A stretch of 63,364 nt of DNA, the filler included, from Chrysochromulina tobinii (taxonomy: Eukaryota): the NCBI GenBank assembly GCA_001275005.1. It is 6 parts of 6 records of this genome, joined end to end, with 100 filler letters (N's around TTAATTAATTAA, not from the genome) between each part and the next. Parts side by side here need not be neighbours in the genome. Positions count along the whole stretch, not along the records: positions 27,424 to 47,888 come from JWZX01001446.1; positions 47,989 to 55,561 come from JWZX01001451.1; positions 55,662 to 59,509 come from JWZX01001473.1; positions 59,610 to 63,364 come from JWZX01001486.1; 2 more parts are not named here. One strand, given 5' to 3'. The notes beneath the pieces were generated by a model, which did no database searches, was not told the DNA's origin, and saw nothing but the letters and a program-made list of their open reading frames with translations. The translations under genes and the position numbers were made by a program. Below, one piece after another: positions 29,235 through 62,348 of this stretch (the stretch's first letter is position 1; the number at the start of each line of letters is the position of its first letter).

Positions 29235-31366
29235 ATGTTTGGCCGGATGAAGAAGGGCCACTTCGGTGGTTTGACTCCGCCACTGCCGGTGGACGAGAGC
29301 AGCAATGCGCCGGAGGCGGGCTCCTCTTCCGATGACGCCGTTGGAACTGAAGATGTAGTGGGATCGAAGAGGCCCCATCATCCGCCGGAAGTTCCAAAAG
29401 GCGAAGCAGCACCAGCAGCACCAGCAACGCTGAAGCTCAGCATGCCACCGCAGCACCAGCACCAATCAACACAGAGTCCTTTCGGTGCAGGGCTGCCCCC
29501 ACCGTCGGCCGCAACGATGGTGCCCTTGGCGGCGGCGCCGCCGCCGAAGCTGCAGGCCTCCAAGAGCGCGCTCTCAAACTTGAAGCTCCAAATCCCCGAT
29601 GCGGTGATGAAGGCGAGCGGGACAAGATTGACCTGCTGCACAGAGTGCGGGATGCGGGCTCAGCGCACGTTTGGCGAGTGCTCGCGCTGCTTCGGCATAA
29701 GCGTGTCGGCCGCATACTTGGGCCTTCGGCTGCTGCTGGCGGTGCCGCTCGGGCTGGCCGTCGGCGCGGCGGTGCTAGCGCTGCAGCTGCTCCTGTTCCT
29801 CGCGCTGCTGCTGCTGCTGCCGCTCGCGGCGCTCTTCGGCCTTCTGATGCCCGCCGAGAATGAGACACGCGCCAGCCCGATGGCGCTGCCCTCGAGACAC
29901 GTGGTCATACTCGGAGGCGGGGAAGGGCTCACGCGCGAGATCGCGCTCGAGTGCGTGCGGCGCGGCGCCGACGTCACCGTCCTCGCCGCCGAGTCGGACG
30001 CCCTCACTGCGACCTACGAGCTCATGAAAACGATTTCCCTCGAGCGACCGACGCAGGTGAGCGGTGCAAGGGCAGCAGCTGTGCTGCCTGCAAGTGCTCA
30101 CCACGGCGTCCTCACCTCTCCCCGCAGGCGAGCGAGCAACGCCAGCAGCTGCGCTGCTCGCCGCTCGAGCTCTCAGATGGGCCGATGGCCTGCTTCGTCG
30201 GGATGCAGAACGTGCTCGAGATCGTCGGCCGAATCGACTGCTTCGTGTGCCACCCGTCGGAGCTCTTTCTCGAGGTGCCCGGTGGTGTGAATGTGAAGAG
30301 AGGGACGTCGAACACTGGCAGCGACGGCGCTCAAGACGCCCACGACGGCGCTTCAGGCGCCCACGACGGCGCTTCAGGCGCCCCTGCAAGTGCGAACGCC
30401 CCTCTCGCCGATGCGCTCTGATGACGCCTCTGATGACCTCTCTGATGACGCCTCTGATGACATCCCTCATCAGGTGCAAGTGCGATCGCTCCTCTCGCCG
30501 ATGCGCGCATTGCCGAGGCGGTTCTGTGCTGCGTGTGGGCTGTACGCGCCATCGTATTCCCCATGCAACGGCAGGCGCACGGGCGCGTGATGGTGCTCGG
30601 CACGGCGCCTCCAGCTGCCTCGGCCGTGACTCGCCTCTCGTACAAGCTCGCTATGCAACGGCTCGCGCGCTCGCTCCGCGCCGAGTTGGGCGAGTTTGCC
30701 ATCCCCGTCTCGCTCGCATCGCCCCTCGGTGCCGATGAACCCTCGCCCAGGCGCGCCGACGCCAGCAGCGGCAGTGGCAGCAGCGGTGGCAGCGGCGGCA
30801 GCGGCGGCGGTTACGGCGGCGGCGGCGGCGGCTACGGCGGCGGCGGCGGCAGCTGCGCCGGGTGCTGGGCCGGCGCGTCGTCTCGGGCACCTCACCCCCT
30901 TGAGTACGCGGGCCACGTGGTGAGCAGCATGCTCGAAGGGGGTGCCCTCCATCTTCCCCAGCATGCAAGCGCTCACCACGGCGCCCTCTCCTCTCCCCAC
31001 AGGTGAGCAGCATGCTCGAGGGGGTGCCCTACATCTTCCCCCCCGGTGGCAGTCGACCGACGATGCGTTCCGGGTTGGGCGCCGTACTGGGCGCCCCGCT
31101 CGGCTACAATCGGCTCTGGCTGACGCTGCTGCTGCTGCACGCCTTCTCGCTGCCCATCGCCTCGCTCTACGAGGTAGGCCTACCGACCGCGTGGCTGCCC
31201 AGCAAGCAAGTGCTCACCACGGCGCCCTCTCCTCTCCCCACAGGTGGGCCTACCGACCGCGTGGCGCGAGGCCTGCACTCGCGCCCGCCTGCGCCTCGAG
31301 ACTTTCAGAACACAAAAGGAAGCTGCTAGACAGGGCTTCGCTCCCCTGCAAGAGCTCGAGGCGTAG
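29235..31366 (+). CDS. Membrane-anchored divergent SDR (KDSR-like fold). Introns 30057-30127, ~30378-30473 (donor uncertain), 30920-31002 and 31174-31243
   Basis: TM segment followed by HVVILGGGEGLTREIALECVRRGADVTVLA, GRIDCFV, PMQRQAHGRVMVLG and YKLAMQRLARSLRAELG. Splicing restores one continuous frame to TAG at 31366. Confidence 0.65.
30057..30127 (+). mobile_element. Introner-like intron, family A (GCAAGTGCTCACCACGGCG cassette). Other copies at 30920-31002, 31174-31243, 37095-37175 and 39331-39405
   Basis: A near-identical ~40-nt 3' cassette in five introns of three unrelated genes. In four of them the 5' part copies the downstream exon. Confidence 0.75.
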
Positions 31367-31744
31367 CGCCGTCCCGGGCAGATGTGCGTGTGGCTCATAT
31401 CATTCTCACATCTGGTCAGTATCTGCGGCGTACCCTCACGCTCGCAGGCGACGGCGGCAGCAGTCGACGAAAGTCTGCGGGATGCGAGATGCAGATAGTT
31501 TTGATCCCTTTACGCCATACGGTGAGTGCAGGGATGTGAGTCTGTGTCATTTTGGGGCCTGGCTCGTTACCCGGTACGTGTGTGGGTGAATTTAAAACAG
31601 GACCACACAGTACAGCGGCGCTCATGCAGGCGCGTCCCCGGGGGGGCGCGCTTACATGTGTGGGAAACACAGACTACAAACTCCGTCCTCACACCAATCC
31701 CTCACGGTGGAGACTTGTGTGCGCGGCCCAAGGGTGCGCGCGCG

Positions 31745-34700
31745 ATGTTGCACCTCATCGAGCAGGATTTGCGTGCGTTATCCGAGGTGCGCGATGCCCG
31801 CAAGTTTCCCGAGGTCAAGGAGGCGGCGGAACGGGCCCTTCTGCGTCTCCGCAGCATTGCGAAGGCCACTTCACCCTCTGCGCCAGCTGCGGAGCAGGCC
31901 CAGCAGGTGGCAGCCTCGGAGGAAATCCTCGTGCCCTTCATGCTTGCGCTTGCGAGCAAGAGCGAAGGGCTGCCGCTGGCAGCACTTGGTTCCGTCCAGC
32001 GCATGATCTCACACAATGCGGTCGCACCGCAACGGTTGCCGACAATCACGTCCCAGCTGATAGCACGGGCGCAGCTGCCCTCTGCGGACGAGCCCTCGCT
32101 CCTCAAGGTGTTGCAGACTGTGTTGACAATTGCCAGCTCTCCTGCACTCTTGCAATCGGACACGATCGTCGCACAACTTCTGCTACTGTGCCTGACGTTG
32201 CAGCAGTCCCGGGCGCCCACTGTCAAGGGTACGGCCTCGGCGATCGTTCAGCAATTCGTGGCGCTCCTGCTCGATCATGTGGCTGCCGAGGGCTTGCCAG
32301 CGGCGCCTGCTAAAGAGGGCGCTCTCGCGGCACCGACGGAGGAAGCGCTCAAATCTCTGAGTGTCGCGACGCGCTGTTCCTACCTCGCCATACGAGACCT
32401 GTGCTACTTGGCCAACGGCGAGCCCGCTCTCTGGCTACCGGGCTCTGGGCCCGTGGGCGTGCCATTCGCGCTCGAGGTCATTCAGCGCACGCTCCAGAGC
32501 CATAAGGCATTGTTCATCTCGCTCACGCCCTTCCGCTACTTGCTCCGTGAGCGCGTGTGTTCGCTGGTGCTCAAGACCATGCAGGCTCCGCAGCAAGAGT
32601 GGCCGGCGGCGCTGCGGCTGGCGCATCTCACCTCGACGCTCCTCTCGGGCTACGCCGCCGTGCTGCGCACGGAGTGCGAGATCCTCCTCTCGATGCTCGT
32701 CAAGACGGCCGCGGCCGAGGCCTCGCCCCTATGGCATCGGGCGCTCGCTCTCGAGGCTTGCCGGGTAGTTTCAGCGGACCCTCCGGGGCTCTACTCCCTC
32801 TTCGCGGCGTACGACATGGCCGCCAAGTCGGCGCCCCCCCCCAGCCTCACCAGCAGCCTCCGTGCTGAGCCCGCTGGCGTCTTCGCCTCCTTCGTCGCCT
32901 CCTTGTGCGGCCTGCTCAAGTCGCCGACGGTCAACTTTGCGATGCATGCCGAGTACATCGAGGCGCACTTTTTGCGCCAGCATCGCCAGATGCCCTCCGT
33001 CGAGCGGACCGCCACCTTCAACGTTGGGTTGTACTCCGAGGCCGATGGCACGCACCTCACCAATGATTACGCCGCATCGCTCGCCGTCGAGTGCCAAGTC
33101 TTCCTGGCGCGAGCAATCGGCTCCCTCGGCGAGACGCTGCGTGCCCGCGACGAGGCGGCGGCGGCGGACGATGCAGCCGGCGGACCGGCTACGAAGCCGT
33201 CGGCGTTGGAGAGCAAGTCGTCGGTGGCGCTCTCCGAGCCGATGGATCCGGCGGTGATGCGCGAGATGGTCGGCGTTTGTTGGCAGCCGCTCCTGTCCGC
33301 GCTCTCAGTCCTGATGGCACGCTTCAGCTCGGAAGAAGCGATCCAACTGATCCTTAAGTGCTATCAGGCCTTCACACAAGCCTGCGCGGCGCTGGAGCTC
33401 ACCGCGCCCAAAGAGGCCTTTCTGGCCTCCCTGTGCCATTCCTCTCTGCCGCAGGACCGGGCGTCGCGGGCGGGCGACACCACCTCCTTTTCTAGCCTCC
33501 AGGCCATGATCGACACCGCGTACGAGCCGCTGCCCCAGACGCGCCTCTCGGCGAAGAATGTGCAGGTGCGATCTCCTGGATGGTCCTTGATTTCGTTTGA
33601 TTGCGTGTGAATGCCCTCAACGCCGCGAAGAACGTGCAGGTGCGATCTCCCTTGATGGTCCTTGATTGCGTTTGATTGCGTTTGAATGCCCTCAACGCCG
33701 CGAAGAACGTGCAGGTGCGATCTCCCTTGATGGTCCTTGATTGCGTTTGATTGCGTTTGAATGCCCTCAACGCCGCGAAGAACGTGCAGGTGCAATCTCC
33801 CTGGATTGCGTCTGATTGCGTCTGATTGCGTCTGATTGCGTCTGATTGCGTCTGATTGCATCTGATTGCGTCTGATTGCGTCTGATTGCGTCTCACTGCC
33901 CTGTGTGCCGCGGAGCAGGCTCTCAAAGCGGTCTTCAACGTCGCGCACTGCATGGGAGACATGCTCGGCACCTCGTGGAATCTCGTGCTGAACGTGCTCG
34001 AGCACCTCGACAGGATCATTGCAAACTCGAAGACGACCACGGCCGGCGGGCAGACTACCATTGAGCGCGCCATCGCGACGGTCCACGGCGCGACTCCCGA
34101 GGCCACCTCGAACGAGCTCGCCATCCTGTCCGCGGCGCTCAACAACCTCTTTTCGGCGTCGACGAAGCTGAGCGACGTGGCGATCTCCCACTTCCTCACG
34201 GCGCTCTCGACGCAGAGCTTCTCCTCCCTCGCCCATGAGGCGACCTCCAAGGAGAAGCTCGCCACGCCTGGCTCGGCGGCGGCCCAGCCCACGCGCCTGT
34301 TTGCGCTCAACAAGTTTGTCGAGACCACGCTGATCAACCTGGAGCGTATCGCGGTGCTCTGGCCGATTGCGACGCAATTCTTGCTGCCCGTGGCCAACCA
34401 CCAAACGCAGCGGATCCGCGTCCTCGGTGTCGAGTCGCTCTCCAAGGTCGTCATCGCGGCGATGCGCCTCTACCTGAGCGACTCGCAGGCGATCGAGACG
34501 GGCTCGGGCGCGGAGGCGGCGCTCGGGACGGCGCGATGGCCACCGCACAAGGAGGGCAGCGCACGCGGCCTCGTGGGCACCTTTCCGAGCTCCTGGGACC
34601 GCGTGCTCCTCGCCCCCTTGGAGGAGTTGCAGCGTCGCTGCGCCTATCGTGAGACGCATGAGCGCATCTTGAGCTCCACTCACCAGGTACTGCAGGCATG

Positions 34701-37700
34701 CGGCGTCGGCCTGCGCGATGGCTGGCTGATGCTGCTCTCGATCCTTCATTGGGCGGCGACGAAGCAGAAGAATTTGGTGTCACTCGCCTTTCGTTCGGTC
34801 GAGTTGATCGCGTCTGACTTTTTGACCTTCCTTCCGTTGGCCTGCCTGCCCGCGTATGTCGAGGTCGCTGCCGCGTATGCGACTCAGACGGATCACCTCA
34901 ACGTGGCCCTGACGGCCATCGGCTTGCAGTGGACGATTTGTGACCACCTCTTCAAGGTCCAGTCGTTCGATGCCTCGGACGCGAGCAGCGACGCGGACGC
35001 GGCGTCCGACGCCCGCGACGGCGCCTCGGACGGCCTCGGGCCTGCTGCGCCCGGGACGGCGCCCGGGACGGCGCCCGGGACGGCGCCCGACGGCTCCGCC
35101 GTTGAGGAGGAAGGGGTCGCGTCCACGCCGCGCTACGCGCACCTCAACGTGCGCGATGACGTGCGCACTCCCGACGTGTGGCGTGCGAGTGTCACGTCCG
35201 TCCGCCGCCTGTGCGTCGACGTGCGCCCCGAAGTGCGCACGTGCGCGATGCACTCGTTCGTGTCCATCATCTCGTCGCATGGCAAGAACCTGCCCGGTCC
35301 CTTTTTGGACCATCTGCTCACCCGCACGCTGCATCCCATGCTGGACGAGATCGTGACCAAGACGGCGTCCGCCTCGACGATCTCGTCGGCGAGCGCCGCG
35401 AGCGCCAAGCTGGGCACCGAGGGCGGGCGGGATGTGATGATGATGGTCCATCACTCGCGTGACACGGAGGCTAAGCAGTGGGACGAGACATGGGTGCTCG
35501 CGCTCGATGCGGCCGTGCGGCTGTACCGCGGCTTCCTGCCTCAGCTGCTCAGCTGTGCTTCCTTTGAGCGAGCCTGGTCGACGCTGCTCGGGTTCGTCAA
35601 AAAGTCGCTCCTCTCGATGCCGCGCTCCTCGGAAGTGGCGCTCGCAAGTATCACCGCGGTGCACTCGCTCATGCTCTCCTCCGTGCAGCTCTCGACCCAG
35701 GGTGGCTCCTCTCCGCGCACCTCGTCCGACGATCCGGCCGCCACCGCGCCGGCGTCGCCCAAGTCGCCCCCGAGCTTGCAACGCGCCAACACAGTGCCCG
35801 CCAAGGCGCTGGTGCCCGTCGCGTCGCCAGCCGACGGGCCGGGGTCCGCCGTACAACTGGCCAGTGGTCTGATGAGCATCGCCGCCAGCACGGCCCCCGT
35901 CGAGCGCGAGCGCCTGCCGCCGAAGCTGTGGGCTTCTGTCTGGTCGATGCTCGAAACGGCCATCGAGCAGGCGACCTCGGACGCCAGCACCTTCGCCACG
36001 CATGAGAAGATGCTCTGCGCCCTCGCGAACCGCACCGCCGATCTGTACGAGGGCGGCCGCGGCTATTTCGAAGAGGCGGACGTGCTCCGGCTGCTCCAGC
36101 TCGCCGAGCGTCTCGTGCGCTCTCCGGAGCGCCCCCTTGGCTGGGAGCCAACGGAGCCTACGTGTGCCCCGAGCGCGCTCCAGAACGCGGTGCTCAACCT
36201 GCTCTCGAAGCTGCCTCCGTTTCTGATTGCATGCTGATTGCATCGCTGAGTGCATGCTGATTGCCTCCTCCCTCATCAGGTGCTCAACCTGCTCTCGAAG
36301 CTGCCTCCGTTTGGGTCGCCGGGCGTGAGGGAGGACGAGATGTGGCCGCTGCTGCTCTGGCTGCTCCTCAAGCTGCTCGAGCCGCCGTCCGCCCCGACGC
36401 CCGTCGCGCTCACCAGCCCAGCGGCGACGGCCAAGGCGCCCGCCGTGGCGGGCGGCCGAGGCGCCGTGGCGGGCGGCCCGACCGGATTCGGCGAGAAGTG
36501 CTACCAGCTGCTGCACCGGCTGCTGACCGAGGAGGCGAGCCCCGCTGCCAAGATGGCCTCTAATGAACGCTAATGAGCGCTGATGACCTCTGATTGCTGA
36601 CCGAGGAGGCGAGCCCCGCTGCCACGATGGCCTCTAATGAACGCTAATGAGCGCTCATGACCTCTGATTGCTCCCCTCATCAGGCGAGCCCCGCTGCCAA
36701 GATGGCCGTCGCCGAGGATGTCCTCAACGTGACGCGTCGAATTATGGCCTGGCGCCTCAACGAGGCCTGCCAGTCTCCCGGGCTGCCACGCGCCGTCGCG
36801 GCCGGGTTCGTCACTCTCCTCGAGGCGATCTTGGCGCATCTCCCGTCGCCCGCCGCCGACCCCATGCTCGCCGAGCGAGCGCACCACGAGCTCGTCGAGG
36901 CGCTCTGGACGCGCCTCTCGCCACAGGCGCTTGTGGCGTCCTCGGGCTTCGCCGAAGCCTCAATCGGGCCGCCCGTGGCGGCGCCTCTCGGACCGGTCAC
37001 CGCCGAGGTGGACCTGCTTCCTTTTCTGCTCTCGGTCTGCTCGGACTTGGAGGAGACGAAACTCATGGAGAGCACGCTGACGGGCGCTCGTTCGGTACTC
37101 CGCGCGGCGTCCATGAAGTCGGAGCATCGCTCGCATGCAAGTGCTCACCACGGCGCCCCGTCCCCTTCCCCACAGGTACTCCACGCGGCGTCCATGAAGT
37201 CGGAGCATCGCACGCGGCTGCTGCTGATGCTGTGTGCCGTTCTCCGTCTCCCGATGCATGCAGCCGTCGCGTGCGATGCATGCTGGCGCGAGGCCGTCAC
37301 AGCGCTCTGCATGCTGAGCTCCTCCACGGGTGGTGCTCAGGACGGCGCGTGCGCGAGCTTGACCGTGCCTAATGGTGCTCAGGACGGCGCTCGAGGAGCT
37401 CAGGACGGCGCGTGTGCGAGCTTGGCCGCGCCTAAGCTGCTGCAGGTAGCACGCGTCGTCCTCAACGGCTGGGCCGACGTGGAGGGCGTCAAGGAGGAGG
37501 GCGCGCCCGTTACGGCGCGTGGCGGTGTTGCGGGCGTGGAGGACGTCAAGGAGGAGAGCATGCTCGCGCTGAGGGCGGCCCAGATCGCGCATTTGCTTTC
37601 ACACCTGAGCAGCATGCGGCTCGCTGAAGGCGCCCTGCCGGCTCCCAACTCGCAAGGTCGTTCGATCCCCGCGCGGATCGCACCTGCGATGATCCAGTGT

Positions 37701-37856
37701 ATCGGCGAGCCCAGAGCCCTCTTCGCGCGGGGCAAGGTCCCAGTGCAGGTGCTCGAGCTCCAATCTGCGATCCGGACTGCTATGCAAGGGGTGGCCGCCG
37801 AGCTGGGCCTTGGGACGGAGTCTTCGGTCTCGTCCGTTTCGTCAGAGGTGCACTGA
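31745..37856 (+). CDS. MON2: Protein MON2 homolog. Introns 33566-33918, 36190-36279, 36535-36683 and 37095-37175
   Basis: DLRALSE..KFPEVKEAAE N-terminus, LKVLQT, KNVQ|ALKAVFNVAHC across a splice, NVALTAIGLQW and MVHHSRDTEAKQWDET. Confidence 0.9.
36190..36279 (+). mobile_element. Introner-like intron, family B (CTGAT repeats ending CCTCATCAG). Other copies at ~30378-30473, 36535-36683, 61790-61961 and 62130-62297. A related intron lies at 33566-33918
   Basis: 33-bp perfect copy of the downstream exon, then CTGATTGC-type repeats and the shared CCTCATCAG acceptor. Confidence 0.75.
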
Positions 37857-38115
37857 GGGACGTGCGGCGCTGAGGGACGCGCGGTGCTGAGCGTGCAGTC
37901 GGCGCCCGCCATGGCGTGACTGCGTCCGACCGGTGCACTGTGCAAGAGCTCGGAACAGGGAACATGCGTCCGGGGTCTTCGGTGAGAAACTGGAAAGTAT
38001 GTGTGTGTGTGGGCGTAGGCGGTGAACGCAGTGTGATTGTATAAAGAGAGGGTGCGCGTAATGTTCACAGCCTATACACCTGTATTCACACGGCGCTTCG
38101 CGGGTGCCAACGACT

Positions 38116-40161
38116 ATGCCGCCGAGAGGCAGCCGGCTGCTCTCCTCCGTGCTGGCCGCACGTGCCGGCGGTGGCGCAGAGGTGCTGGCCTTCAAGGCAT
38201 CGGTCGATGAGCTCTCGCGCCTCAGCACCGCGCGAGCTCAGGACGAGGCGCTGCTCCAGCAGATCTCGGCGCAGCTGCACAGCCTTGAGCCGGCCGTCTG
38301 CGCGCGGCTGCTCACCGAGTGCCGCTTCCGCGACGAGTGGCGTCAGGAGAAGTGCGAGCGTGCACTGCAGCAGCTGCCCAGCAGCGAGCAGGATCCGGAG
38401 ACCGTCGACCGCATGCGCGAGTACATCGCGATGCTGGCGCCTGACGAGGACCTCGGCCCACTCGAGCCCGGCTGGCAATCGGAGCTGCTGCGGCAGCAGC
38501 GCACGCTCGCGAGCCTTCTGACGCTGTGCGCGGGCGGCTCGTCGGACCGCGTGCAGACCGTGCTCAGCGACTTTATGGAGAACTCGCGCAGCCGGCTGCA
38601 CGCGGCGCTCACCTCGGTGCACGAGGAGCTCCTCGAGGCGGCGGCGAGCGGCCACTGCGCACGCGCGCCGGCGCGCGTGTCGGGGTGCGGAGGAGGGCTG
38701 TCGCCGAGCTCGTCGCCGCTCAAGCAGCAGCCGCAGCCGCAGCCGCCGCCGTTCCGGTCCGCACCGGGCGCGCCCCACCCCATTTATGCTGAGGCGGCGT
38801 GGGGGGGGGCTCCGCCGCAGCTCTCGCCCAGGCACGTGTGGGGTTCCGAAACGGAGGCGGCCGCGCGCCCCGGTACAGCTGAGGTGCGCGGCGCGCCGGT
38901 CAAGCCCGGCGGTCCCGGCGGTTCAACGGGCGGCGTGCGCGGCCTCTCTGCGGAGGGCTTCGTCGCGCAGCTGCGAGGGCAGCACCGCGCCGTATGCACC
39001 ATTCAGGCAGCCGTCCGAGGTCGGAGGATGCGGGCGGCGTACCGACGGCGGGTGAACCGTCGGATCGGGGCGGCGGTGCGGCTCCAGTGCTGCGCACGCC
39101 GGTGGGTCGCGAGGCGCGCTCTCCGGGTGCAGCGCGAGCGACGCGTACTGGCCGCCCGACGAGCGCTGCGAGAATGGCACGCAGCTCGGCGGGTGCAGCG
39201 CGCGTGGCGCTGGGCGCGGCGCAAGCGGCGCTGGACGGCGGCGTGGCGCGCGCAGATGGCGCACGCGGCCGGTGCCGACGACAAGGCGTGGCGCGCCATG
39301 CTCAAGCGTTCGCTGCTCCCCAAGACGCAGGTAACCTCGAGGAGAGCTGGGAAGCGGTTCAAGCATGCATGTGCTCACCACGGCGCCGTGCCCCTTTGTT
39401 CACAGGAGGCGACTGGATTCTCGCAGTACGCCCTGTACACCGAGTCCAAGGTGCTCGCGACGCGACGGGCGAAGGAGGAGGGGAGCGCGCAGCGGCTGCA
39501 GGCGGCGGTACGCGCCTTGAAGGTTCGGGTGCTCTGGCGCAAGCTGCACCGCGCCGCGAGCGTGCTACAGGCCGGTGTGCGCCGCTGGCGTGTCTGCAAT
39601 CGAGAGTGCCCATGGCGGCGCGCGCTGCGACGGCACCACGCAACAAGGCGCTCGCGACGGCGCTGGCGCTCGCAGCGCGCGGCGGCGCTCGCGCTCCAGC
39701 CGCTCCAGACGCGCGCTGTGCTGGTGCAGCTGCACGTGAGCAAGGAGCTGGAGCATGTGTACGAGGAGGTGCTGCGCGAGAAGCGCGACTTTGAGAGCGC
39801 CTTCCGCAAGTGGGCGGCCAAGATGGAGAAACTCACGCTGGCGAAGAAGCTGCATGCGGACTGGATCCCGCAGATGAACGTGGAGCGGGGCGAGTCTTAC
39901 TTTTTCAACGTGCGTACCGGGGAGTCGTCCGAGGAGCACCCGAACATGAAGGAGGTGCGTAAGACGGAGAAGAAGCAACGCAAGCTCGCCGAAGAGGCGA
40001 TGGAGGAGAGGCTCGCGCGCCTGCAAGGCTACGAGGAGCAGCTGCGCGACGCGCTGCGCACGGAGCTCGAGGCCTACGCCGAGCAGGCCGCCAAGGTGGC
40101 CGCCGAGGCGGCCGTGCTCGCGCAGGTGGCGCAGCAAGGCATTCGATATGTAGTTCGGTAG
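38116..40161 (+). CDS. IQ-motif and WW-like domain protein. Probable in-frame intron 39331-39405
   Basis: Multiple IQ motifs (TIQAAVRGRRMR, RLQAAVR, VLQAGVRRW) and WW-like DWIPQMNVERGESYFFNVRTGESSEEHP. Confidence 0.75.
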   Translation: MPPRGSRLLSSVLAARAGGGAEVLAFKASVDELSRLSTARAQDEALLQQISAQLHSLEPAVCARLLTECRFRDEWRQEKCERALQQLPSSEQDPETVDRMREYIAMLAPDEDLGPLEPGWQSELLRQQRTLASLLTLCAGGSSDRVQTVLSDFMENSRSRLHAALTSVHEELLEAAASGHCARAPARVSGCGGGLSPSSSPLKQQPQPQPPPFRSAPGAPHPIYAEAAWGGAPPQLSPRHVWGSETEAAARPGTAEVRGAPVKPGGPGGSTGGVRGLSAEGFVAQLRGQHRAVCTIQAAVRGRRMRAAYRRRVNRRIGAAVRLQCCARRWVARRALRVQRERRVLAARRALREWHAARRVQRAWRWARRKRRWTAAWRAQMAHAAGADDKAWRAMLKRSLLPKTQVTSRRAGKRFKHACAHHGAVPLCSQEATGFSQYALYTESKVLATRRAKEEGSAQRLQAAVRALKVRVLWRKLHRAASVLQAGVRRWRVCNRECPWRRALRRHHATRRSRRRWRSQRAAALALQPLQTRAVLVQLHVSKELEHVYEEVLREKRDFESAFRKWAAKMEKLTLAKKLHADWIPQMNVERGESYFFNVRTGESSEEHPNMKEVRKTEKKQRKLAEEAMEERLARLQGYEEQLRDALRTELEAYAEQAAKVAAEAAVLAQVAQQGIRYVVR

Positions 40162-40352
40162 TACATCATGATCTCAAGGGGGCGGCGACATTTAGTTTAT
40201 TTTGAGAGGTTGACACACGTGTCAAATGTGAAAGAGGATCGCGTGAAAGACTCGTGAAAGTGTGCCCAGTGTTCAAGTTTTCACACGTGTCAATGTGAAA
40301 AGAGCACTGCACGCAGGCCTCGTGTCTATCTGTGCGGTCGTCTGAAAGGACC

Positions 40353-41435
40353 ATGGGTGACGAGGTGCGCTGACGCTGTCCCACGGCTGGCTGAGATGGC
40401 GCACGCCTGCGATGATCTTGTCTGAGGGGCGTGCCTGTAGCCGCTGCGACCGCTGGCGCGCACGACCGCCGAGCAACTTCGGTGAGCTGTCGCTCGCCAA
40501 ACGACCACGCTGACCAGGCCTCGCTTCTGTCGTTTTCAGGATGAGAACGTCATGCGCAAGCTGAAGGTCGAGAAGCTGATCCTCAACATCTCCGTCGGCG
40601 AGAGTGGCGATCGTCTCACCCGCGCCGCCAAGGTGCTCGAGCAGCTCAGCGGACAGCAGCCCGTCTTCAAGAAGGCGCGCTACACTGTTCGCCAATTCGG
40701 CATTCGTAGGAACGAGAAGATCGCGTGCCACGTTTGCATGCGCGGCGAGAAGGCGGAGGAGATCCTCGAGCGTGGCCTGAAGGTGAAGGAGTACGAGCTG
40801 CGGAAGAAGAACTTCTCCGCGACGGGCAACTTCGGCTTTGGCATCAGCGAGCACATCGATCTCGGTGCGCGCCCGCTACGCCCGAACGCTCGCCGCCGCG
40901 CGGACGATGAGGCGGCAGCGGCGGCGCAAGCAGTCGGGGCGAAGCCGGCCGGGATGTTCAAGGGACGGCGGCGGCGGAAACGGCGACGGATGGGGGCCAC
41001 AGCAAGGACAGCAGCGGTTCCGATGGGGCTGTGGGGTGGCAGCACACACCGCCTCCAGTGGCGACATTTCTTGATGGGACAGGCCTGCGACGCGGCGAAG
41101 CGGGCGGATGCTCGGCGGTGGCCGCCTGCGGGTTGCCGGCGATGGATGGACAATCCGAGTGGCTCTTGGTTCACACGTGCCGCCCGTTCACACGTGCCGC
41201 CCGCAACTGCTCTGACGTGCCCCTCGTGCGCGTGTCGCGTGTCGCAGGCCTCAAGTACGACCCGTCCACTGGCATCTACGGCATGGACTTTTACGTCGTG
41301 ATGAAGCGCACGGGCGGCATGCGTGTGGCGAAGCGGCGCGCCAAGCAGACGCCCATGGGCATTAGCCACCGCATTAACAAGAAGGAGACGCAGCAGTGGT
41401 TCAAGAACAAGTACGAGGGCGTCCTGATGAACTGA
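40353..41435 (+). CDS. RPL11: 60S ribosomal protein L11 (uL5). Introns 40365-40539 and 40865-41247
   Basis: [32 protein letters not shown] and [29 protein letters not shown]. Canonical GT-AG introns restore the frame. Confidence 0.97.
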
Positions 41436-41779
41436 TGCAATGAGAGGCGACGGGAGGCGCGCGAGTCGCCCGACGCGCGGAGTGTACTGCGCCAGCTCCA
41501 CTCGTACCCCCGGCAGCTGAACTAGGGGAGCGCGTGTGGTCACTGCGGCGTGCCGGGCCCGGGTAGTCGCTGTCCTGTGCGTCTGCGCTTGAACATGGTC
41601 ATGTGAAGCAGGATCCGTGTATCGAATCGTTGTGCTCAAAGTCACACACTACGCTGAAGAAATCGAATTTCCCGAGATATCCTGCTTACAAGCATGCAAG
41701 CGGTGATCATGAACGTCACGAAACGCCGTCTTGGGCACATCGCGCCGCACGGCGCTCGGTCGAAGTTGTTGCGCTCCGC

Positions 41780-42058
41780 ATGGCCACCAAAAAGTACACG
41801 GCTGCCGAGGAGAAGGCGCTAGCGCTGGAGCTCCAGAAGCAGCTCGCCAAGAACACCGAGCTGGTGCGCGTCCTGTACACGCTGCGAGGAGAGGCGCCGC
41901 CCAACAACAACTCGGATGACCACTCGGTGATGGGCGAGCCGCACGAGGAGGAGCGTCCACGCTCGTGGGAGGTGTATTCAGCGATGCCGGGCGTCGACAG
42001 CTTGCATACGGGCCTGTCGAAGCGGACACCTAACGGTATGCACGCCACCATTTTGTGA
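41780..42058 (+). CDS. Small hypothetical protein
   Basis: ATG 41780 with a short coiled-coil-like N-terminus. Confidence 0.35.
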   Translation: MATKKYTAAEEKALALELQKQLAKNTELVRVLYTLRGEAPPNNNSDDHSVMGEPHEEERPRSWEVYSAMPGVDSLHTGLSKRTPNGMHATIL

Positions 42059-49285: not shown

Positions 49286-49934
49286 GCAAACGCCCGAACC
49301 CCTCGTGCCTGGTGAGCGGTCCTTTCGAAGACCAAGCCGCCGCAGCCCAACGCGGATTCTCTGTGCGCTGCTGGGTGAAAAAGGGCGACAAGAAGGTGCG
49401 TCACCACAGCCCGAGCCCATACCCCACCACACCTATGACTCCGTGTTGCCTGCCACCATTCCGCAGTACTACTTTGTGATTATAATTACAGCGCACCCGC
49501 GGACAGGCTGCGCCTACGCCAGGGAGCTGACGGTGCTCGCGCTCCTCGGCATTCCTTCGATTCCCGGCTCGTTTGAATTCCGGCGCCCCCCGCGCACCGC
49601 GGAAGACGTGGCGAAGTACATGAACCGCGATCCACCGTTTCAATCACTTCCGCGGCGCTTCGGCCAAACGATCACGGGTGTGCTGCCGGAACCAGCCTCC
49701 AGCTTGTACGCAGCCTCGCTAGTGAGCCAGGCCGAGAGTCTCCGGTTGGAAGCGAGTTTGTCTACAGGGGACGCATTGTGAGCCTGCGCCGTGCAGGTGG
49801 TGGCGTAGAATAGCGTCTAAGCGGCAGCGGCGAGAGCCTACATATGTGTAACGTATGTTTTTGAATCGTGGCGCGCAGATGCGGCTATTACAACTGCAAA
49901 AAAATGCAATAAAATGGGCGGGGGGAGGGATGGT

Positions 49935-52880: not shown

Positions 52881-53020
52881 CCTGACCCTAACCCGAATCC
52901 TAATACCTAAAAAAAGTCAAGTTCGATCGCGGCGAGCACGCGCGCGCGGCTGTCCGCAAGTCGTGTCGCATTTCGTTTCACACCGGCATGCAACACGTCA
53001 TCATTAAGCAACTTAACGAT

Positions 53021-55561: not shown

Positions 55562-56100
55562 NNNNNNNNNNNNNNNNNNNNNNNNNNNNNNNNNNNNNNN
55601 NNNNNTTAATTAATTAANNNNNNNNNNNNNNNNNNNNNNNNNNNNNNNNNNNNNNNNNNNNTGCCGGCAACCATCGTCGTACTCATCCTTCCGGAATCGT
55701 GAGGGAGTACAAGGTCAGACCCGCTTTCAGGCACTGTTCTTCACAGCCAGAGAGAACTTTGTAACTTACCAAGCTACCCACACATTGGCAGGACCCCCTG
55801 AATTGCGGTGGGGGAATTTGAAGGGGGTGTCAGCGTGGGAGTAAGGCGGCATGCGGCATGGAACATGGAACGGCACCTGTTGACACGACGGGACCCGGGC
55901 ATGGAAACCTGCTTGTTCTCCTCGTTGCTTGTTCTCCCCGTTGCTTGCCGTGGGCTCGGTGCTCGTCGTCAGTCCTTACTGTCGGGGCTTGAACCCCTCC
56001 GGTCTCTTGTTGTCTGTTTCATATCGTCGTTCACAGTTCTCGCCTCGCTCTGGAACCGTGACTGTGACGCTTTTTCATGGGCGTGTCGTCCCGCGCACTC

Positions 56101-59100
56101 TCAAGGCGGCCGCCGTGTACACGCTGTTCGTTCTCTTCTCCGGCCCGTGACGCTCCCCGGGCCTTTGGCATTGTGCCCCTCTCCTTCCTCCAGCCACCAC
56201 CATAGCCGGATTCCTTCTTTGACTCCCTCCATCGCCGTTTGTGCTCTGCCTCGCCTCCTGCCTTCCGCCTGTCGTTGCTGCCCTTCCATGTCCGCCGTCG
56301 TGTCAATCCCTTCCGCCGTGCCACTCCCTTCCGCCGTTTCGACTTCCGCCGTCCGCCCTCGTCCTTTCCCTTTGACATACCATGTCGTGGTCGTGCCTCT
56401 CACCAGTCTCGCCCACGTTGCTAGCGCCCTGATCTTCTGTCCCAACCTCGCCCACCACACCTCAGTGCTCATCCGTCGGAGCCGTCGCGTGGCTCCTCGG
56501 CCTTCTGCAATGGTCATCATCGCTCTCCTCTTTGTTCTGGTACTTTCTGCCTGGGCCTGCGCTTCTCCCTCCGTGAGTTTGTCCAGCCGGATCCTCTGAT
56601 GAGCGTGCCCTGTTGCAGCGTCCCGCCATGCTCGGATCACCAGCTTACTCCATCCCCTGTGCTCCTCTCGTTCCCTCTTCCATGTCTCCGCCTTCCGTCC
56701 TGTCTCAATCGCTGTGTGTTTCAGGTCAAGCGCCAGGTGTACGAGCTGCCTTCTGCGCCCGTCTATTTCCTTCTCGAGCTTCGTGGACGCCTCCGGTACG
56801 TTCGGCAGCTGCGCTGACATGACCTGCGCGTATGCTCGCCATTCCATGTCCGTGACCCTGTCCCCTTGCACCGCTCTGTTCGCTGCCGCCATGGCCCTTA
56901 CGCACACCGCTTTCACCTCCTTTGCGCCCTCACCTTTCAAGTTCTTTACCGCCTTGAAGATGTCCTTCATACCTTCTGCGACCTCCTTTCTGATGACCAC
57001 GCTCGTTCCCGCGCACCTCCCCGTCAGCCAGTGGCGCATCGTGGCCAGGGGCGCCGCATCATCAGGTACCTGTCCTCCACCTGCTGTGATTTCCCTCCTT
57101 GCCCTGAGGCACGCCGCGCATCCCCATTCCCCACATCGCGTCGCCGGGCCTCCCTCCGCTCCCTCTGACCGCTTCCGCCGTTCCCAGGTCTGTTCATGCG
57201 TCGCGCCAATCGTGTCACCGTTCCTAAGGCCCATGATGACTCCCACGCACTGATTGTGTGTTTGCACGTCTTCCCAGGTCGGCTTTGTGATCGTGCACTT
57301 CTCCGACACTTGCACTTTCGTCATGTGTAGTGCTCCGGCTCCCAGCTCTTTCCAGATGGCCCCTTCCTGCCCCGCTGTGATCCTGCCCTTCTCTACTCCC
57401 TTTTCCATGTGCTCCCTTACGTGCTCCGTCGCCCTCTGTCTCGTTCCGCTGTACATGGCGAGGTCTGACATCACCCAGCCCTCACTCGTCCACCATTCGC
57501 AGATCCGCGGTCGTGTCTCATTCCACTTTGCCACTCGGTTCGTGGCGTCCTCGAGTTCGGCATCCAGGTGTGTTTTCGCGCTCGCGTCCGCGTATTCGTT
57601 TGGGGAGCATCCGGTGTGCGCGGGTACATACATGATGACCACGATCCCCATGTGCGCCCGGATTCTACAGATGGCCTCGAGCAGCGCTCGGCGGTCTCCT
57701 TTGGTCTCGTGCCGCACCTCCCCTTCCCTCCATGCTCTCTCGATCTCCTTGATGGCGCTCTGGCAGTCGGATAGGATCAGGATCCTTTTCGCACTCACGG
57801 CCTCCGCTCCCTCCGCGCTTCTCGTTTCCAGGTACACCCGCAGCAGCGCTCGGAACACCGCGTACATCTCCGCGTCCATGACCTCCCACGTTGCAGGCAG
57901 CCGGCCCCCTTCCATACCCCGTCCCGTAGCGCGCTCCTCCATTCCCGGCTCAGCTTGCAGCATTCTGAGTCCCTCCTCCTCGTACGCCCCTTGCTCCCGC
58001 AGCCGGGCTCCCGACCAGATTCCGAACGCCGTCCTCCCGTCGCGATGCTTTGAGCCGTCCGTCGCGAACCGTCTCGCCCCAGTGCACTCTAGCCACTCTC
58101 TGTACGAGGTGTGCACGAGCTTATTCCGCCGGGCCTCTTCGAGCATCTCCTTCATCTCCCTTGTGTTCCGCATGTGTGTCGCCTTCTCCCACGTATCCTC
58201 ATATCCCCCTTCCCACCTGATTCGATATTCCCATCCTCCAAAGCACTCCGGCGCCTTCCTCGCTGCCAGCACTTCGCTCATCGCCCACGTGCCCTCCCCC
58301 CAGTTCTCTTCGGCAAGCCCCTCGTTCCCCTCCCGTCTCGTCTCCTGCGCCGGGGGCCTCCCTTCCGCCGCTCTCATCGTCGCTCTCACGTTCTGTTGTG
58401 CACTCATTTCTGTCATCAGGTGCTCGTACTCTTGCTTCGCCTTTTGTGCACTCCCTTTGAATCCCCACTCCCCTCGTATCTGAGCCCACGTCTTCAATTC
58501 TCGTGTGTGTCCGTCGATGACGTCCTCCCAAGTCGCCATTCCCGCCGCCGCCAGTCGTCTCGAGAAGGTGCATCCCTTTGTCCCCTCCCACGGTCCATTG
58601 ATTGTATCTTCCCAGAGCAGCGGCCCAGCTTCCCGTCGTTGATTTTCCGTCATGATCCACCGCGCTTCCGCGAGTGGTCCCTGCAGCTTCCTTCCCCCCT
58701 GTGTGAGTCTCCCTCGCATGCCCAGCCTCACCCTTGCCTTCAGGTACGCTTCCATGATCACATCCTCTCGGAGCTGATCTGGTCCCTCCATCAGGTGCGT
58801 CGGATGCCATTCGAGCGGGTTCACATCCCTGCATCCGAGCCGCGCGCACGTGTTTGCGAGTTCCGCCTCCACGACCGCTCTCGCTGCCACCCCTTCCCCT
58901 CCCTGCAGCGCCCTTTCCACCTGATCGCAGAGCGCCGCCGCCGCCATCGCGTAGGCGTGCGTGTGCTCTAACCCCGTTCCTCGATTCACGTACATGGTTG
59001 CCTTTGGCAGACCCGTTGTGAAGCCCTTCGCCCTGAGCGCCTCCCCTCTAGCGTTTTCTATTTGTACCGCATCTTCCCAGGTGATCACGGTGGACCTCCC

Positions 59101-59509
59101 GTAGTACCCTATAATTCCCGCCAACGCCAGCTCGATTGCCTTGGCGAGCTGTTCCTCGGAGAGCAGCGGGATGCGTGCGATCAGCCCGATTGCCTGTCTG
59201 CACTTCGCCACCACCTTCTTTCTGACCGCAGTCTGTGCCTCCCCTCGATTCCATCCGGTCGTAAGCTCCGTGCCCAGGTACTTGTACTTGTCGTCTCCTT
59301 CCAATTGCGGGATCGTGGTTCCGTCTGGCATGACCATCTCCCACCCCGTCACATCTCTCTCCGTGCCGTCGCTCTCCCAGTAGGTTGCCGACCAGGCAGT
59401 CTTCTTCTTCCCCTTTACTTGGAGCTTCAGCCCCGCCACTCTGGCTACGATCCACATCGCCTCGAATGCCCTCCTGAGTGTTTGCACGTCGTCTGCGAGA
59501 ATGAGCCCC
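56101..59509 (-). mobile_element. Non-LTR retrotransposon ORF2, 3' part: end of RT, chromodomain, RNase H, Cys/His finger
   Basis: GLKL..KKT and YKYLG (RT C-terminal motifs). Chromo-like EVLAARK...WEYRIRWEGGYEDTWE. RNase H FATDGS / DAEMYA / LSDCQSAI / VPAHTG..PNEYAD. CAAC...HW...C finger. Confidence 0.88.
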
Positions 59510-59690
59510 NNNNNNNNNNNNNNNNNNNNNNNNNNNNNNNNNNNNNNNNNNNNTTAATTAATTAANNNNNNNNNNNNNNNNNNNNNNNNNNNNNNNNNNN
59601 NNNNNNNNNGCGCCGCACCCCCGCGTGCTCGCCCACGCTCCTCGCGTGCTCTGGCACTCGATGACGCCGCGTGTGCTGCATTTGCCACAG

Positions 59691-62348
59691 TTCGGAGCCA
59701 CAGCTTTGATAATGGCCTCAGAGAGAGAGCACGAAGGGTGCGTCCGCCTCCTCCTTGAGGCCGAGGCGATCGAGGTCAACGCCAAGGTAAGCCTCGAGCA
59801 TGCCCTCCCCCAGCACATGCGATGGGTCCGCTTGCATGTACTCATTCCGTTTGGCCTCTCGTTTGTCTTTAGAACATCTACGATTATACAGCATTGCATC
59901 AAGCGGCATACTACGGCCGCCTCGCGATCGCCAAGCGCCTTCTCGAAGGGGGCGCCGATCCGACCCTTCGAACCAGGTCCGGCGAGACGGCCATCAACAT
60001 CGCACGGAGGCAGGGCAAGAGCGAGGTCGTGGCCCTGCTGAGCGAGCCCAGGTACGCGGATGAAGAGCGAACGATGAACGCGACTGCCACGCAGCGGCCG
60101 CGCCGTCCTGGGCACACGCCGTCGGCGGATGGCTCGCCGACGGCGAACAAACGGCGGCGACTCGCCATGGGATGCGGCCGAGAGGACGCGACGGCCGACC
60201 TGCCTCGCGTAAGAGTGCCTTGCGATTGCGCTTCCTTCCCAAGCGATGATTGCTGCCGAGTTGGCGCGTGCCCAGCGCGCCGTGGCCGTGATGGGCACAC
60301 CGGGAGTCGGCGGCACTGGCGGCCTGCGTGGCCACTCTCGTTGCGGCTGCGCCACCGACAGCGCCCCGACGCACGCTCAGGCGCGCGCTCAGGCGCACTC
60401 GGGCGCCACTCAGGCGCACTCACAGGCAGCACTCAGGCAGCAATCAGGCAGCACTCACGAGCAATCACGAGCAATCAGTAGCACTCGGTCGACCCACGCC
60501 GTCGCCCCACGCCGTCGTCCTCGGCGAGGGCGCTGCTGCCGCCACTGCCTCTGACTGCCTAGCCACCTTCACGACCACCCTTCGCAAGCCCTCGCGCTTC
60601 CTGATTGCATGCGATGACGCGCCGTTCTGGGCGCCACTGCACAGCGCCAACAGCGTGCGTTCCCCGTGCGCTTCGAAACAGGGATTGGAAGGCGGAGGCG
60701 GCCAAGGCGAATGCCGACAAGGCGGCGGCCGCGAAGGCGGCAGCGGACAAGGCTGCGGTCGCGAAGGCGGCGGCTGCGAAGGCAGCGGCGGACAAGGCGG
60801 CGGCCGCGAAGGTGGCAGCGGACAAGGTGGCGGCTGACAAGGCGGCGGCTGACAAGGCGGCGGCGGACAAGGCGGCGGCGGACAAGGTGGCGACGGACAA
60901 GGCGGCGGCGGACAAGGCGGCGGCGGACAAGGTCGCGGCGGAGGAGCTGCGGCGCCGAGCCACGGCGCTGGACCTGCTGCAGGTGCTCACGACTGTCGAC
61001 ATCGCCGACGACGCGACGTTGAAGAAGTCGATCGCGTTTTGCGACGAGCACGGCGTGACGAGCGTGTCCGACATGGTTGAGTGCGACCTGGTCGACGACT
61101 TTGTTCGCCATCTCGGCCTAAAGACGGTCCCCGGCAAGAAGCTGCTCAGCATGCTGCAGACACCGACATCCGGACTCGCCGCCCAGTTGAGCGACCACCT
61201 GGCCTCCCCGAGCAGCAGCAGCAACAAGCCCTCGCCAGAGAGTGTGGCCCAGCAGGCGGCGGCGGAGAAGGCCGCAGCGCAGAACGCAGCAACAGAGGGC
61301 ATGGAGTGCAGTTTCTGGTTCGTCAACGCGGACAGCCTGCGGCACGCTGCGACGCCAAGCCTGCCGATGATGCAGACGCTGCGCACACAGGAGCCGCACC
61401 GACTCGTCCAGAAAACGATCGGCTTCGTCGAGGGCATCAGCGGCGCCTATAAGAATCTTCTCGTCGTGAGCCATCGATGGGAGACGCCGACAGATCCAGA
61501 TCCGGACGGCGCGCAGGCTTTGGCGGTGCAGGCCTACCTGAAAGAGCATCCGGAGATCGACGCCGTGTGGTTCGACTTCAGCTCGATGCCCCAAGGGAGA
61601 AACAAGACTCCGAGCGAGTCCGCCGAGTTCAAAGAGATGCTCCCCAACATCAACCTGCTCTACCTGACGTGCTCCGTCCTCATTCTCATGGATCGGAGCT
61701 ACATGAACCGATTCTGGACGCAGTTCGAGGCGTACCTGAGCATGCGGGCGATCACGAGCGACGGTCTGACGAACGCTCGGGATCCAAAGGCGCGTGTGAC
61801 CATCAAGACGGCTGATGACCCCTGATGACCCCTGATGACCCCTGATGATCCTTGATGAGCCCTGATGACCCCTGATGACCCCTGATGACCCCTGATGATC
61901 CTTGATGAGACCTGATGACCACTGATGAGCCCTGATGACCACTGAGTGCCTCCCTCATCAGGCGCGTGTGACCATCACGACGCTCCACAAGCTTCCCGCA
62001 AGCATGGGCGGGGTGCTCGTGGACGAGTGGTCGAACAAGACGCCTGATGAGGCGCACGCGATCCTCGCGGGGCAGGATGTGATTGTCACCAACCAGAGCG
62101 ACAAGGACATCCAGCTCGCCAAGCTCAAGGTGCTCAACGAGCGCCCACTGATTACCTTTGATGGCCTCTGATTGCTCATGATTGACTCAAGTTGACTCTG
62201 ATTCCTTTTGTATGCTCACTAAGCTCAAGACGCTCAAAGCGCCTCTGATTGGCCTCGGTGGTTTCACCTGATGACCACTGAGTACCTTCCTCATCAGGTG
62301 CTCAACGAGCGAGCCCAGTTGGCGTACGCGGTCTCTCGCAATGCCTGA
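59691..62348 (+). CDS. Ankyrin - AADK low-complexity - SAM-like - HET-like domain protein, 5'-partial. Introns 59787-59872, 60052-60681, 61790-61961 and 62130-62297
   Basis: Ankyrin GATALIMAS, TALHQAAYYG and GETAINIA. HET-like VVSHRW..P.DPDPDG, VWFDFSSMPQ, NINLLYL and YMNRFWTQFE. All four introns restore the frame. Confidence 0.8.

What the first reader, a model, noticed from the sequence alone, without database searches (positions are those of the whole stretch)
29235..62348. Introner-like system: introns built from a long copy of the downstream exon plus a shared acceptor cassette
Seen: in the SDR, MON2 and ankyrin-HET genes, at least 9 introns start with a copy of the exon that follows them. 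Copy lengths: 36190 (33 bp, perfect), 36535 (24 bp, perfect), 37095 (36 bp, 1 mismatch), 30920 (~39 bp, 2 differences), 31174 (22 bp, 1 mismatch), 61790 (21 bp, 1 mismatch), 62130 (14 bp, perfect), 30057 (~30 bp, diverged) and ~30385 (~32 bp). Each copy is followed by one of two shared cassettes ending in CAG. Splicing removes one copy plus the cassette and restores the protein exactly. Known: algal introners (Micromonas, Aureococcus) co-opt a splice site from a short, fixed-length target-site duplication. Inference: these duplications are long and variable, with no terminal inverted repeats. That points to staggered-nick or target-primed insertion, or break repair, and near-perfect copies imply recent activity. 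The RPL11 and NLR introns in this window lack the pattern and serve as an internal control.
Basis: partly seen in the sequence, partly recalled or inferred. Interest (0 to 1): 0.92.

Follow-up and report, generated by a model that had tools for sequence, protein, structure and literature searches.

The report
Self-copying introns with long exon duplications
In a freshwater haptophyte alga, many introns consist of a 10–56-base copy of the neighbouring exon plus a shared piece found in other introns and are spliced out of the RNA; they likely arise when break repair duplicates a stretch of gene and fills the gap from an existing intron, which would be a route to mass intron gain that standard introner screens miss.

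Summary
Confirmed and extended. All nine copies are present. Seven lie in the stretch tested with RNA: six show splice joints and one a spliced loose end. Corrections: the 30385 intron uses a donor 6 nt inside its copy; 30057 is often retained; 39331 has the cassette without a copy.

In metagenome loci, 87 of 109 cassette-A acceptors carry a 10–56-nt copy, against 3 of 431 shuffled pairs. One insert is present in L111 and absent in a 98.5%-identical allele; its filler is identical to the next intron's 3′ 48 nt. There is also a mirror form that copies the upstream exon end, and short, mostly in-frame inserts that stay in exons, one antisense. No terminal inverted repeats.

Best reading: break repair or template switching duplicates the site and copies a branch-point piece from another intron, and selection keeps the spliceable or in-frame products. 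Target-primed reverse transcription is the main rival. The host is Chrysochromulina parva-like; a 2025 introner screen lists C. tobinii with zero families. This scan noted the same family earlier on other DNA (e1-2577349).

The parts
29235..31366 (+). Host gene, SDR-like (607 aa when all four introns are removed)
   Evidence: weak adh_short hit below cut-off
30057..30127 (+). Intron, 71 nt: diverged ~29-nt copy of next exon plus cassette A; often retained
   Evidence: joint in X15, retained in X14 and X17
30385..30473 (+). 32-nt copy (30385-30416) plus 12-mer repeats and B-type acceptor; spliced intron is 30390-30473
   Evidence: joints in X14 and X17
30920..31002 (+). Intron, 83 nt: 40-nt copy plus cassette A
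   Evidence: spliced loose end in X17
31174..31243 (+). Intron, 70 nt: 22-nt copy plus cassette A, near-identical to that of the 30920 intron
   Evidence: joints in X14, X16, X17; retained in one X15 contig
31745..37856 (+). Host gene MON2 (1812 aa spliced)
33566..33918 (+). Intron, 353 nt, mirror-like: tandem 75-nt units holding the upstream exon end and donor, then 10-mer repeats
   Evidence: joint in 4 of 4 RNA runs
36190..36279 (+). Intron, 90 nt: perfect 33-nt copy plus B-type cassette
   Evidence: joint in 4 of 4 RNA runs
36535..36683 (+). GC-AG intron, 149 nt: perfect 24-nt copy, internal tandem duplication, B-type cassette
   Evidence: joint in X16 only
37095..37175 (+). Intron, 81 nt: 36-40-nt copy plus cassette A (core 37133-37157)
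   Evidence: joints in X15 and X16
37332..37435 (+). In-frame exonic repeat (period 63) holding core-like 16-mers (2 mismatches each); likely an exonised insert of the same kind
39331..39405 (+). Cassette-A intron with no recognisable copy (counter-example, or decayed)
   Evidence: ORF restored, splicing not shown in RNA
61790..61961 (+). GC-AG intron, 172 nt: 21-nt copy plus 10-mer array and B-type acceptor
62130..62297 (+). Intron, 168 nt: perfect 14-nt copy plus B-type cassette resembling that of 61790
40865..41247 (+). Control: RPL11 intron with no copy or cassette
   Evidence: joint in X15 and X16

Best explanation
These spliced introns are a long duplication of the gene's own sequence around a piece shared with other introns, and they likely form when repair of a staggered break (or a replication template switch) duplicates 10-56 bases and fills the gap by copying part of an existing intron, probably from DNA. 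Steps. (1) Shown: the flanking repeat is the target sequence; one empty allele has it once. (2) Shown: the filler matches pieces of other introns, carrying a branch-point-like motif and usually the 3' AG or the 5' GT; in one case it is identical to the next intron of the same gene. (3) Inferred: the process is blind to splice sites and strand, and selection keeps products over about 64 nt that have a GT/GC in the left copy or an AG in the right copy as introns, and shorter in-frame ones as peptide insertions. (4) Inferred: each new intron becomes a template, so the core spreads copy-by-copy without element ends or a transposase. (5) Not known: the enzyme, and why the 25-nt core has such a sharp 5' edge.
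For: Copies: 87 of 109 cassette-A acceptors against 3 of 431 shuffled pairs; lengths 10-56 nt, median 29; GT/GC starts in 82 of 87. B acceptors 22 of 50 against 5 of 465; mirror form 22 of 86 loose donor candidates against 1 of 813 (both sets include tandem units). Empty site: L054/L015 against L111, with a perfect 33-nt repeat and a 48-nt filler identical to the next intron in L054. Local source: tails at least 0.8 similar in 8 of 69 linked pairs against 100 of 8316 unlinked; linkers of 4 nt or more in 11 of 69 against 261 of 8316, permutation 0 of 1000. Distant source: unlinked loci share 5' extensions of up to about 29 nt, with nested truncations. Non-intron inserts: 39 of 56 cores lacking a pyrimidine tract lie between direct repeats. 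Period 63 nt or less is a multiple of 3 in 22 of 29, longer periods in 40 of 118; one per locus 13 of 20 against 27 of 81, P=0.012. L088, a DNA-methylase gene, holds an intron-type insert, a sense in-frame insert and an antisense in-frame insert with the same rare variant. No TIRs. Precedents: tandem duplications at breaks with 3' overhangs (PMC8355091 abstract); intron gain at staggered breaks in Daphnia (PMC4202315 passages).
Against: Local copying explains only a minority of neighbours; mean tail similarity is marginal (48 of 1000 permutations) and core variants are not locally enriched (611 of 1000). There is no extra microhomology beyond GT between neighbouring targets (2.07 against 2.06 nt). 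The core's 5' edge is sharp (positions 1-4 97-98% conserved, position -1 85 of 173), as a defined element end would be. The 3' end falls exactly at AG even in the 16 of 87 cases with no G before the copy, which fits an RNA template. There is only one empty-site pair; its direction has no outgroup, and its 81-nt insert is in frame without a stop and untested for splicing. The antisense case rests mainly on L088. 45 of 400 random sites also lie between repeats. No enzyme was identified.
Confidence: 0.55

Rival explanations
1. Target-primed reverse transcription: a non-LTR retrotransposon enzyme nicks the target and copies intron-containing RNA (excised intron or nascent pre-mRNA) from its AG end, with 5' truncation and a long variable duplication.
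For: The fixed AG end abuts the start of the repeat while the other junction varies, with nested 5' truncations. In 14 of 87 the copy overlaps the core start. Two long ORFs in the window look like RT/RNase H retroelements (atlas lead at 0.85-0.89 for one of them; motifs read by eye). Local sources fit cis use of nascent RNA.
Against: The mirror form has a fixed GT end and a truncated 3' end. One insert is antisense. There is no poly(A) tail. The ORFs had no Pfam hit and only weak chromodomain hits or none in PDB. No link was found between these ORFs and the core.
Confidence: 0.27
2. Partial intron loss: old introns whose 5' or 3' half was overwritten by cDNA of the spliced mRNA, giving a copy of the next or previous exon; the cassette is a conserved splice signal, not a mobile piece.
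For: It explains both mirror forms and exact registration at the junction. 22 of 109 cassette acceptors lack a copy, like 39331. An empty allele could arise by collapse between the repeats.
Against: It does not explain filler identical to a neighbouring intron, linkers shared between unlinked genes, or exonic in-frame and antisense inserts. MON2 orthologues at 44-61% identity are recorded as full-length proteins, one on 31-kb contigs, and align across all four junctions; this suggests intron-free orthologues, but the gene caller is unknown.
Confidence: 0.1
3. A MITE-like DNA introner mobilised by a transposase, as in Micromonas, Aureococcus or Symbiodinium.
For: A shared core with a sharp edge. 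A donor co-opted from the duplication and an acceptor carried by the insert, like Polarella classes 4, 5, 6, 8 and 10.
Against: Duplications run 10-56 nt, against 3-9 nt and fixed per family. No TIRs: longest exact terminal inverted repeat 3 nt in 87. Both ends vary between copies.
Confidence: 0.05
4. Assembly duplications or reverse-transcriptase template-switch artefacts.
For: Direct repeats promote both artefacts. Two RNA joints cannot be placed within their repeats (34 and 26 nt ambiguity). RNA libraries may contain DNA.
Against: DNA contigs of X11 run through copies and on into cassettes (29000-30753, 36670-37158). Separate assemblies give 100% identical loci. Four joints resolve at GT..AG within 4-8 nt, before the first mismatch and not in the longer identical run. 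ORFs need the removal.
Confidence: 0.02

Closest known systems
Introners with TSD-derived donor and carried acceptor (Symbiodinium; Polarella glacialis classes 4/5/6/8/10; bioRxiv 10.1101/2020.10.14.339549, parts 1-2 of 4 read; PMC9860276 passages)
   Same: Families of similar introns; donor recruited from a duplicated target; acceptor carried by the insert.
   Different: Their TSDs are 3-8 nt and fixed per class, often with TIRs and defined ends. Here duplications are 10-56 nt, insert ends vary, there are no TIRs, and mirror and exonised forms occur.
Chrysochromulina sp. TARA MAG introner family 5 (PMC9860276 Fig. 2C legend) and Emiliania huxleyi fam24 (PMC12130899 supplement file 8, one row)
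   Same: Haptophyte hosts. No TIR in the first. Fam24 is 'co-opt 5', carry 3'' and noted with 10-bp terminal direct repeats.
   Different: The first has a 4-bp TSD and carries its donor; fam24 has 5 copies. C. tobinii is listed with 0 families. Their sequences were not seen, so kinship is untested.
Intron gain at staggered double-strand breaks in Daphnia pulex (PMC4202315 passages)
   Same: Polymorphic new introns flanked by direct repeats of variable length; secondary internal duplications.
   Different: Repeats there are 4-12 bp and the source of most fillers is unknown. Here repeats are several times longer and the filler is a recognisable piece of other introns.
Intron transposition and tandem genomic duplication models (PMC3443670 passages)
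   Same: A new intron homologous to an existing intron; splice sites supplied by duplicated exon sequence.
   Different: Reverse splicing would copy the whole intron with no duplication (my reasoning), and the AGGT duplication model has no foreign filler. This system combines partial intron copies with a long duplication.

Membership tests
Introner (operational definition, PMC9860276) | Four or more non-paralogous introns with similar sequence | tested here: met
   156 unique cassette-A contexts in 143 loci
Introner (operational definition, PMC9860276) | Similarity reaching both intron ends | tested here: not met
   5' ends are locus-specific exon copies in 87 of 109
Introner (operational definition, PMC9860276) | Insertion creates a spliced intron at a new site | tested here: inconclusive
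   Splicing shown for window copies; empty allele shown for one other locus; not both at one locus
MITE/TIR DNA introner | Terminal inverted repeats of 6 nt or more | tested here: not met
   Longest exact terminal IR 3 nt; longest IR within the 15-nt ends 5 nt; n=87
MITE/TIR DNA introner | Short, fixed-length TSD | tested here: not met
   10-56 nt, median 29
Non-LTR/SINE-like retro-introner (features recalled) | Variable TSD, fixed 3' end, 5' truncation | tested here: inconclusive
   Met by the main form; reversed in the mirror form
Non-LTR/SINE-like retro-introner (features recalled) | 3' end shared with an autonomous RT element, or a tRNA/known-RNA head | tested here: inconclusive
   No core match in the two retro-like ORF regions of the window; no Rfam hit at gathering score in 5 loci; whole genome not available
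Break-repair intron gain (Daphnia type) | Direct repeat of adjacent exon at the opposite end of a polymorphic new intron | tested here: met
   L111 against L054: perfect 33-nt repeat, single copy in the empty allele; splicing of this insert untested
Break-repair intron gain (Daphnia type) | Made by end-joining enzymes at a break | not testable with these tools
   Needs induced breaks or repair mutants

The most novel reading that the evidence does not exclude
A transposase-free, self-propagating intron system: a genome-wide duplication-plus-template-switch process copies branch-point pieces from intron to intron, often within a gene and on either strand, making on the order of a thousand new introns and also short peptide insertions in proteins. 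It is invisible to introner screens because one end of every copy is host exon.
Probability: 0.4. Interest if true: 0.93.

Novelty: new variant of a known kind. Interest (0 to 1): 0.82.

Why it matters
The source of most new introns is an open question. Here source, target and an empty allele can be read directly, in a culturable alga with RNA data, so intron-to-intron copying and break-repair gain become testable at scale. The architecture defeats the both-ends test used in introner surveys, and C. tobinii is scored zero in the 2025 survey, so such systems may be undercounted elsewhere. The same process appears to add short in-frame repeats to proteins. Retention of some of these introns shows the splicing cost of young or decaying introns.

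Tried and rejected
No whole genome is held, and the metagenome records could not be opened as handles, so no genome-wide count was possible. Viral contigs: 1 cassette hit and 0 for the 5' extension. Prokaryote genomes: 5 scattered hits, treated as chance and not examined. Rfam on 5 loci: 4 weak hits, all below gathering score.

Extended microhomology between source and target exon starts was tested and not found. Mismatches that improve the donor are not enriched at the first positions of the copy. A 5-bp hairpin in the core (-5.1 kcal/mol) is compatible with the common variants but not with all; it is left as a lead. L029/L068 differ only by tandem-unit number inside an intron, not by presence or absence. 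Summed contig depth at cassettes in X11 is far above the ~40 base, but the tool states this is not a copy number, so it is used only as a hint. An earlier-findings search by sequence returned nothing.
Full report
SETTING. The window is six pieces joined by N-linker gaps; no genome is held. A window protein falls in a 90%-identity cluster with a Chrysochromulina parva protein, so the host is a Chrysochromulina (haptophyte); C. parva is a freshwater species (listing of PMC12085832). Eighteen public runs hold the stretch, six of them RNA.

OBSERVATION. A scan of every YAG against upstream GT/GC donors recovered seven of the nine copies; the two others (30057 and 30385) appear on local alignment. 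Five control introns scored 5-6.5 against 14-35 (four control coordinates there were off by 1-2 nt, which does not affect local scores). Removing the introns gives MON2 of 1812 aa, a 607-aa SDR-like ORF only when all four are removed, and an open 3' frame for the 60.6-62.3 kb gene. MON2 orthologues align without meaningful gaps across the four junctions.

SPLICING. Four RNA runs on 29700-37500 gave joints at 30057 (X15), 30390 (X14, X17), 31174 (X14, X16, X17), 33566 (4 of 4), 36190 (4 of 4), 36535 (X16) and 37095 (X15, X16), and a spliced loose end at 30920 (X17). Four joints resolve within 4-8 nt at GT..AG, before the first mismatch between copy and exon, which argues against RT template switching; 36190 and 36535 cannot be resolved inside their perfect repeats. 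Against clean splicing: X14 and X17 contigs (depth 21-22) retain 30057, the X17 one while spliced at 30390, so it is mRNA; retention truncates the ORF at 351 aa. One X15 contig spans 31174 unspliced, and another runs 33 nt into the 30390 intron. The 30390 donor lies 6 nt inside the copy, so two codons are added. These are contigs, not reads, so no rates can be given. DNA contigs of X11 run through copies and into cassettes.

GENERALITY. One metagenome scan for the cassette-A motif gave 142 loci from 3 of 64 parts, about 2700 stretches estimated in all; many are the same genome in different assemblies. With L001 this gave 175 matches and 156 unique contexts. I dropped 47 (14 with no YAG within 60 nt, 11 at an edge, 22 with no pyrimidine tract). 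Of 109, 87 carry an anchored copy of the downstream exon (score 10 or more) against 3 of 431 shuffled pairs. Copies are 10-56 nt, median 29; they start GT in 76 and GC in 6; introns are 57-140 nt with no frame bias (30/32/25). A few of the 109 are alleles of each other. 22 of 87 copies are perfect, 24 have indels, and the ungapped ones differ at 5.2% of sites. Copy and linker lengths are inversely related (rho -0.53), as a minimum intron size would give, though copy decay contributes. B-type acceptors found in the flanks show copies in 22 of 50 against 5 of 465 (some are tandem units). No TIRs.

(a) Empty site. L111 and L054/L015 are the same gene, 1025 matches to 16 mismatches; L111 has an 81-nt insert with a perfect 33-nt repeat, L054 has the repeat once. 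The 48-nt filler is identical to the 3' end of the next intron, 453 nt downstream, in L054, and one base off in L111. The insert is in frame with no stop, its splicing is untested, and direction lacks an outgroup.

(b) Sources. Linked cassettes share tails (8 of 69 against 100 of 8316) and linkers (11 of 69 against 261 of 8316; permutation 0 of 1000) more than unlinked ones. Most neighbours are unrelated, pairs are not independent, mean tail similarity is marginal (48 of 1000), and core variants and exon-start microhomology show no local signal. Unlinked loci share extensions of up to about 29 nt, including nested truncations of a form that begins with its own GT and contains the 10-mer of cassette B, so A and B are probably linked in origin (inference).

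(c) Mirror form. Here the insert supplies the GT and the intron ends in a copy of the upstream exon end that supplies the AG: 22 of 86 loose candidates against 1 of 813 (the candidate set includes non-introns and arrays). Examples are L006, L029, L049, L058, L079 and L114; window intron 33566 resembles it.

(d) Non-intron inserts. 39 of 56 cores without a pyrimidine tract sit between direct repeats, some as tandem arrays. Periods of 63 nt or less are multiples of 3 in 22 of 29, longer ones in 40 of 118; one per locus 13 of 20 against 27 of 81, P=0.012. The split at 63/64 was chosen after seeing the data; my splice/no-splice classes did not differ (P=0.21), and 45 of 400 random sites also had flanking repeats. 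L088, a C5-methylase gene, carries an intron-type insert, a sense in-frame insert and an antisense in-frame insert sharing a rare variant. MON2 37332-37435 looks like such an exonised insert. Only 4 of 49 multi-core loci have both strands.

(e) The 25-nt core has a sharp 5' edge: its first four bases, outside my search pattern, are 97-98% conserved, and the base before is 85 of 173. This is unexplained: either an essential extended branch signal or a preferred copying boundary.

MECHANISM. Shown: long variable duplication, intron-derived filler, both mirror forms, in-frame exonic forms, splicing of window copies, and one empty allele. Inferred: a break with complementary 3' overhangs, or a polymerase slip-back, duplicates the target; synthesis switches to another intron and back; selection sorts the products by length, frame and splice sites. 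Tandem duplication at 3'-overhang breaks is established in mammalian cells (PMC8355091, abstract only). I put this at 0.55. Target-primed reverse transcription (0.27) fits the main form well, and two retroelement-like ORFs lie in the window (22502-27379, 56101-59553; atlas lead only for the second; no Pfam hit), but it does not readily give mirror or antisense products. Partial intron loss through cDNA (0.10) gives both mirrors but not shared linkers or exonic inserts; full-length MON2 orthologue proteins, one on 31-kb contigs, hint at intron-free relatives, with the gene caller unknown.

COMPARISON. It works like an introner that co-opts its donor from a TSD, but it fails the both-ends similarity test (PMC9860276 section 15), the TIR test and the fixed-TSD test. 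Published TSDs are 3-9 nt and 3-8 nt in Polarella. Daphnia break-repair introns have 4-12-bp repeats and mostly unknown sources. C. tobinii was among the genomes in the 2022 survey (one mention, Table 1, file cut when stored) and has 0 families in the 2025 one. The nearest catalogue entry is E. huxleyi fam24 (5 copies, '10bp terminal direct repeats'). Nine searches showed no description of this architecture. The library lacks most subscription papers; supplement files 13-14 of PMC12130899 and the family consensus sequences were not seen; and I recall, without having seen the text, that 10-11-bp intronic repeats were reported for E. huxleyi. Also read as passages: PMC3443670, PMC4580454, PMC8469720, PMC11282704, and PMC12130899 section 6.

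VERDICT. Real, spliced, widespread in this alga and probably still active. It is a new variant between introners and break-repair intron gain, possibly a transposase-free copying system. Interest 0.82.

Noticed in passing
window 56101-59553 (-): Truncated ORF of 1150 aa that looks like a non-LTR retroelement, with RT and RNase H-like motifs (read by eye; atlas lead 0.85-0.89) and a weak chromodomain match at residues 408-452 (E 0.007).
   Followed up: partly
window 22502-27379 (+): Second long ORF (1625 aa) with RT-like and RNase H-like motifs by eye; no Pfam or PDB hit.
   Followed up: partly
window 49990-52880: Tandem array of ~190-nt units, about 15 copies, ending near a single telomere-like CCCTAA motif at about 52884-52892.
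   Followed up: no
window 439-1869 (-): Intronless aldehyde dehydrogenase about 68-70% identical to proteins that include freshwater Actinomycetota entries; possible horizontal transfer from bacteria.
   Followed up: no
window 30057-30127: Intron retained in two of three informative RNA runs, giving a premature stop; the SDR-like gene may be leaky or regulated by retention.
   Followed up: partly
window 30322-30384: Three 21-nt exonic repeats resembling the core's 3' half; perhaps another exonised insert.
   Followed up: partly
window 14950-22230 (+) and 53021-55560 (-): Two NACHT/LRR-like (NLR-type) genes by eye, the first with an FG-rich low-complexity stretch; their introns lack the pattern.
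   Followed up: no
window 44747-47476 (+): 909-aa ORF with no Pfam hit; transposase-like by eye.
   Followed up: no
L008, L050, L091, L096, L100, L102, L105, L108: The 25-nt core forms tandem arrays with 20-35-nt locus-specific spacers; L091 and L096 share the same spacer in different genes.
   Followed up: partly
L029 vs L068; L052 vs L070: Alleles differ in tandem-unit number, in L029/L068 inside a mirror-form intron, pointing to a high duplication rate.
   Followed up: partly
core, window 37133-37157: The core is bounded by two 6-nt palindromes and folds into a weak 5-bp hairpin with the branch-like motif at the loop.
   Followed up: partly
L001 (viral contigs): A 4.5-kb record filed as viral carries cassette A with an upstream duplication; probably host DNA.
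   Followed up: no
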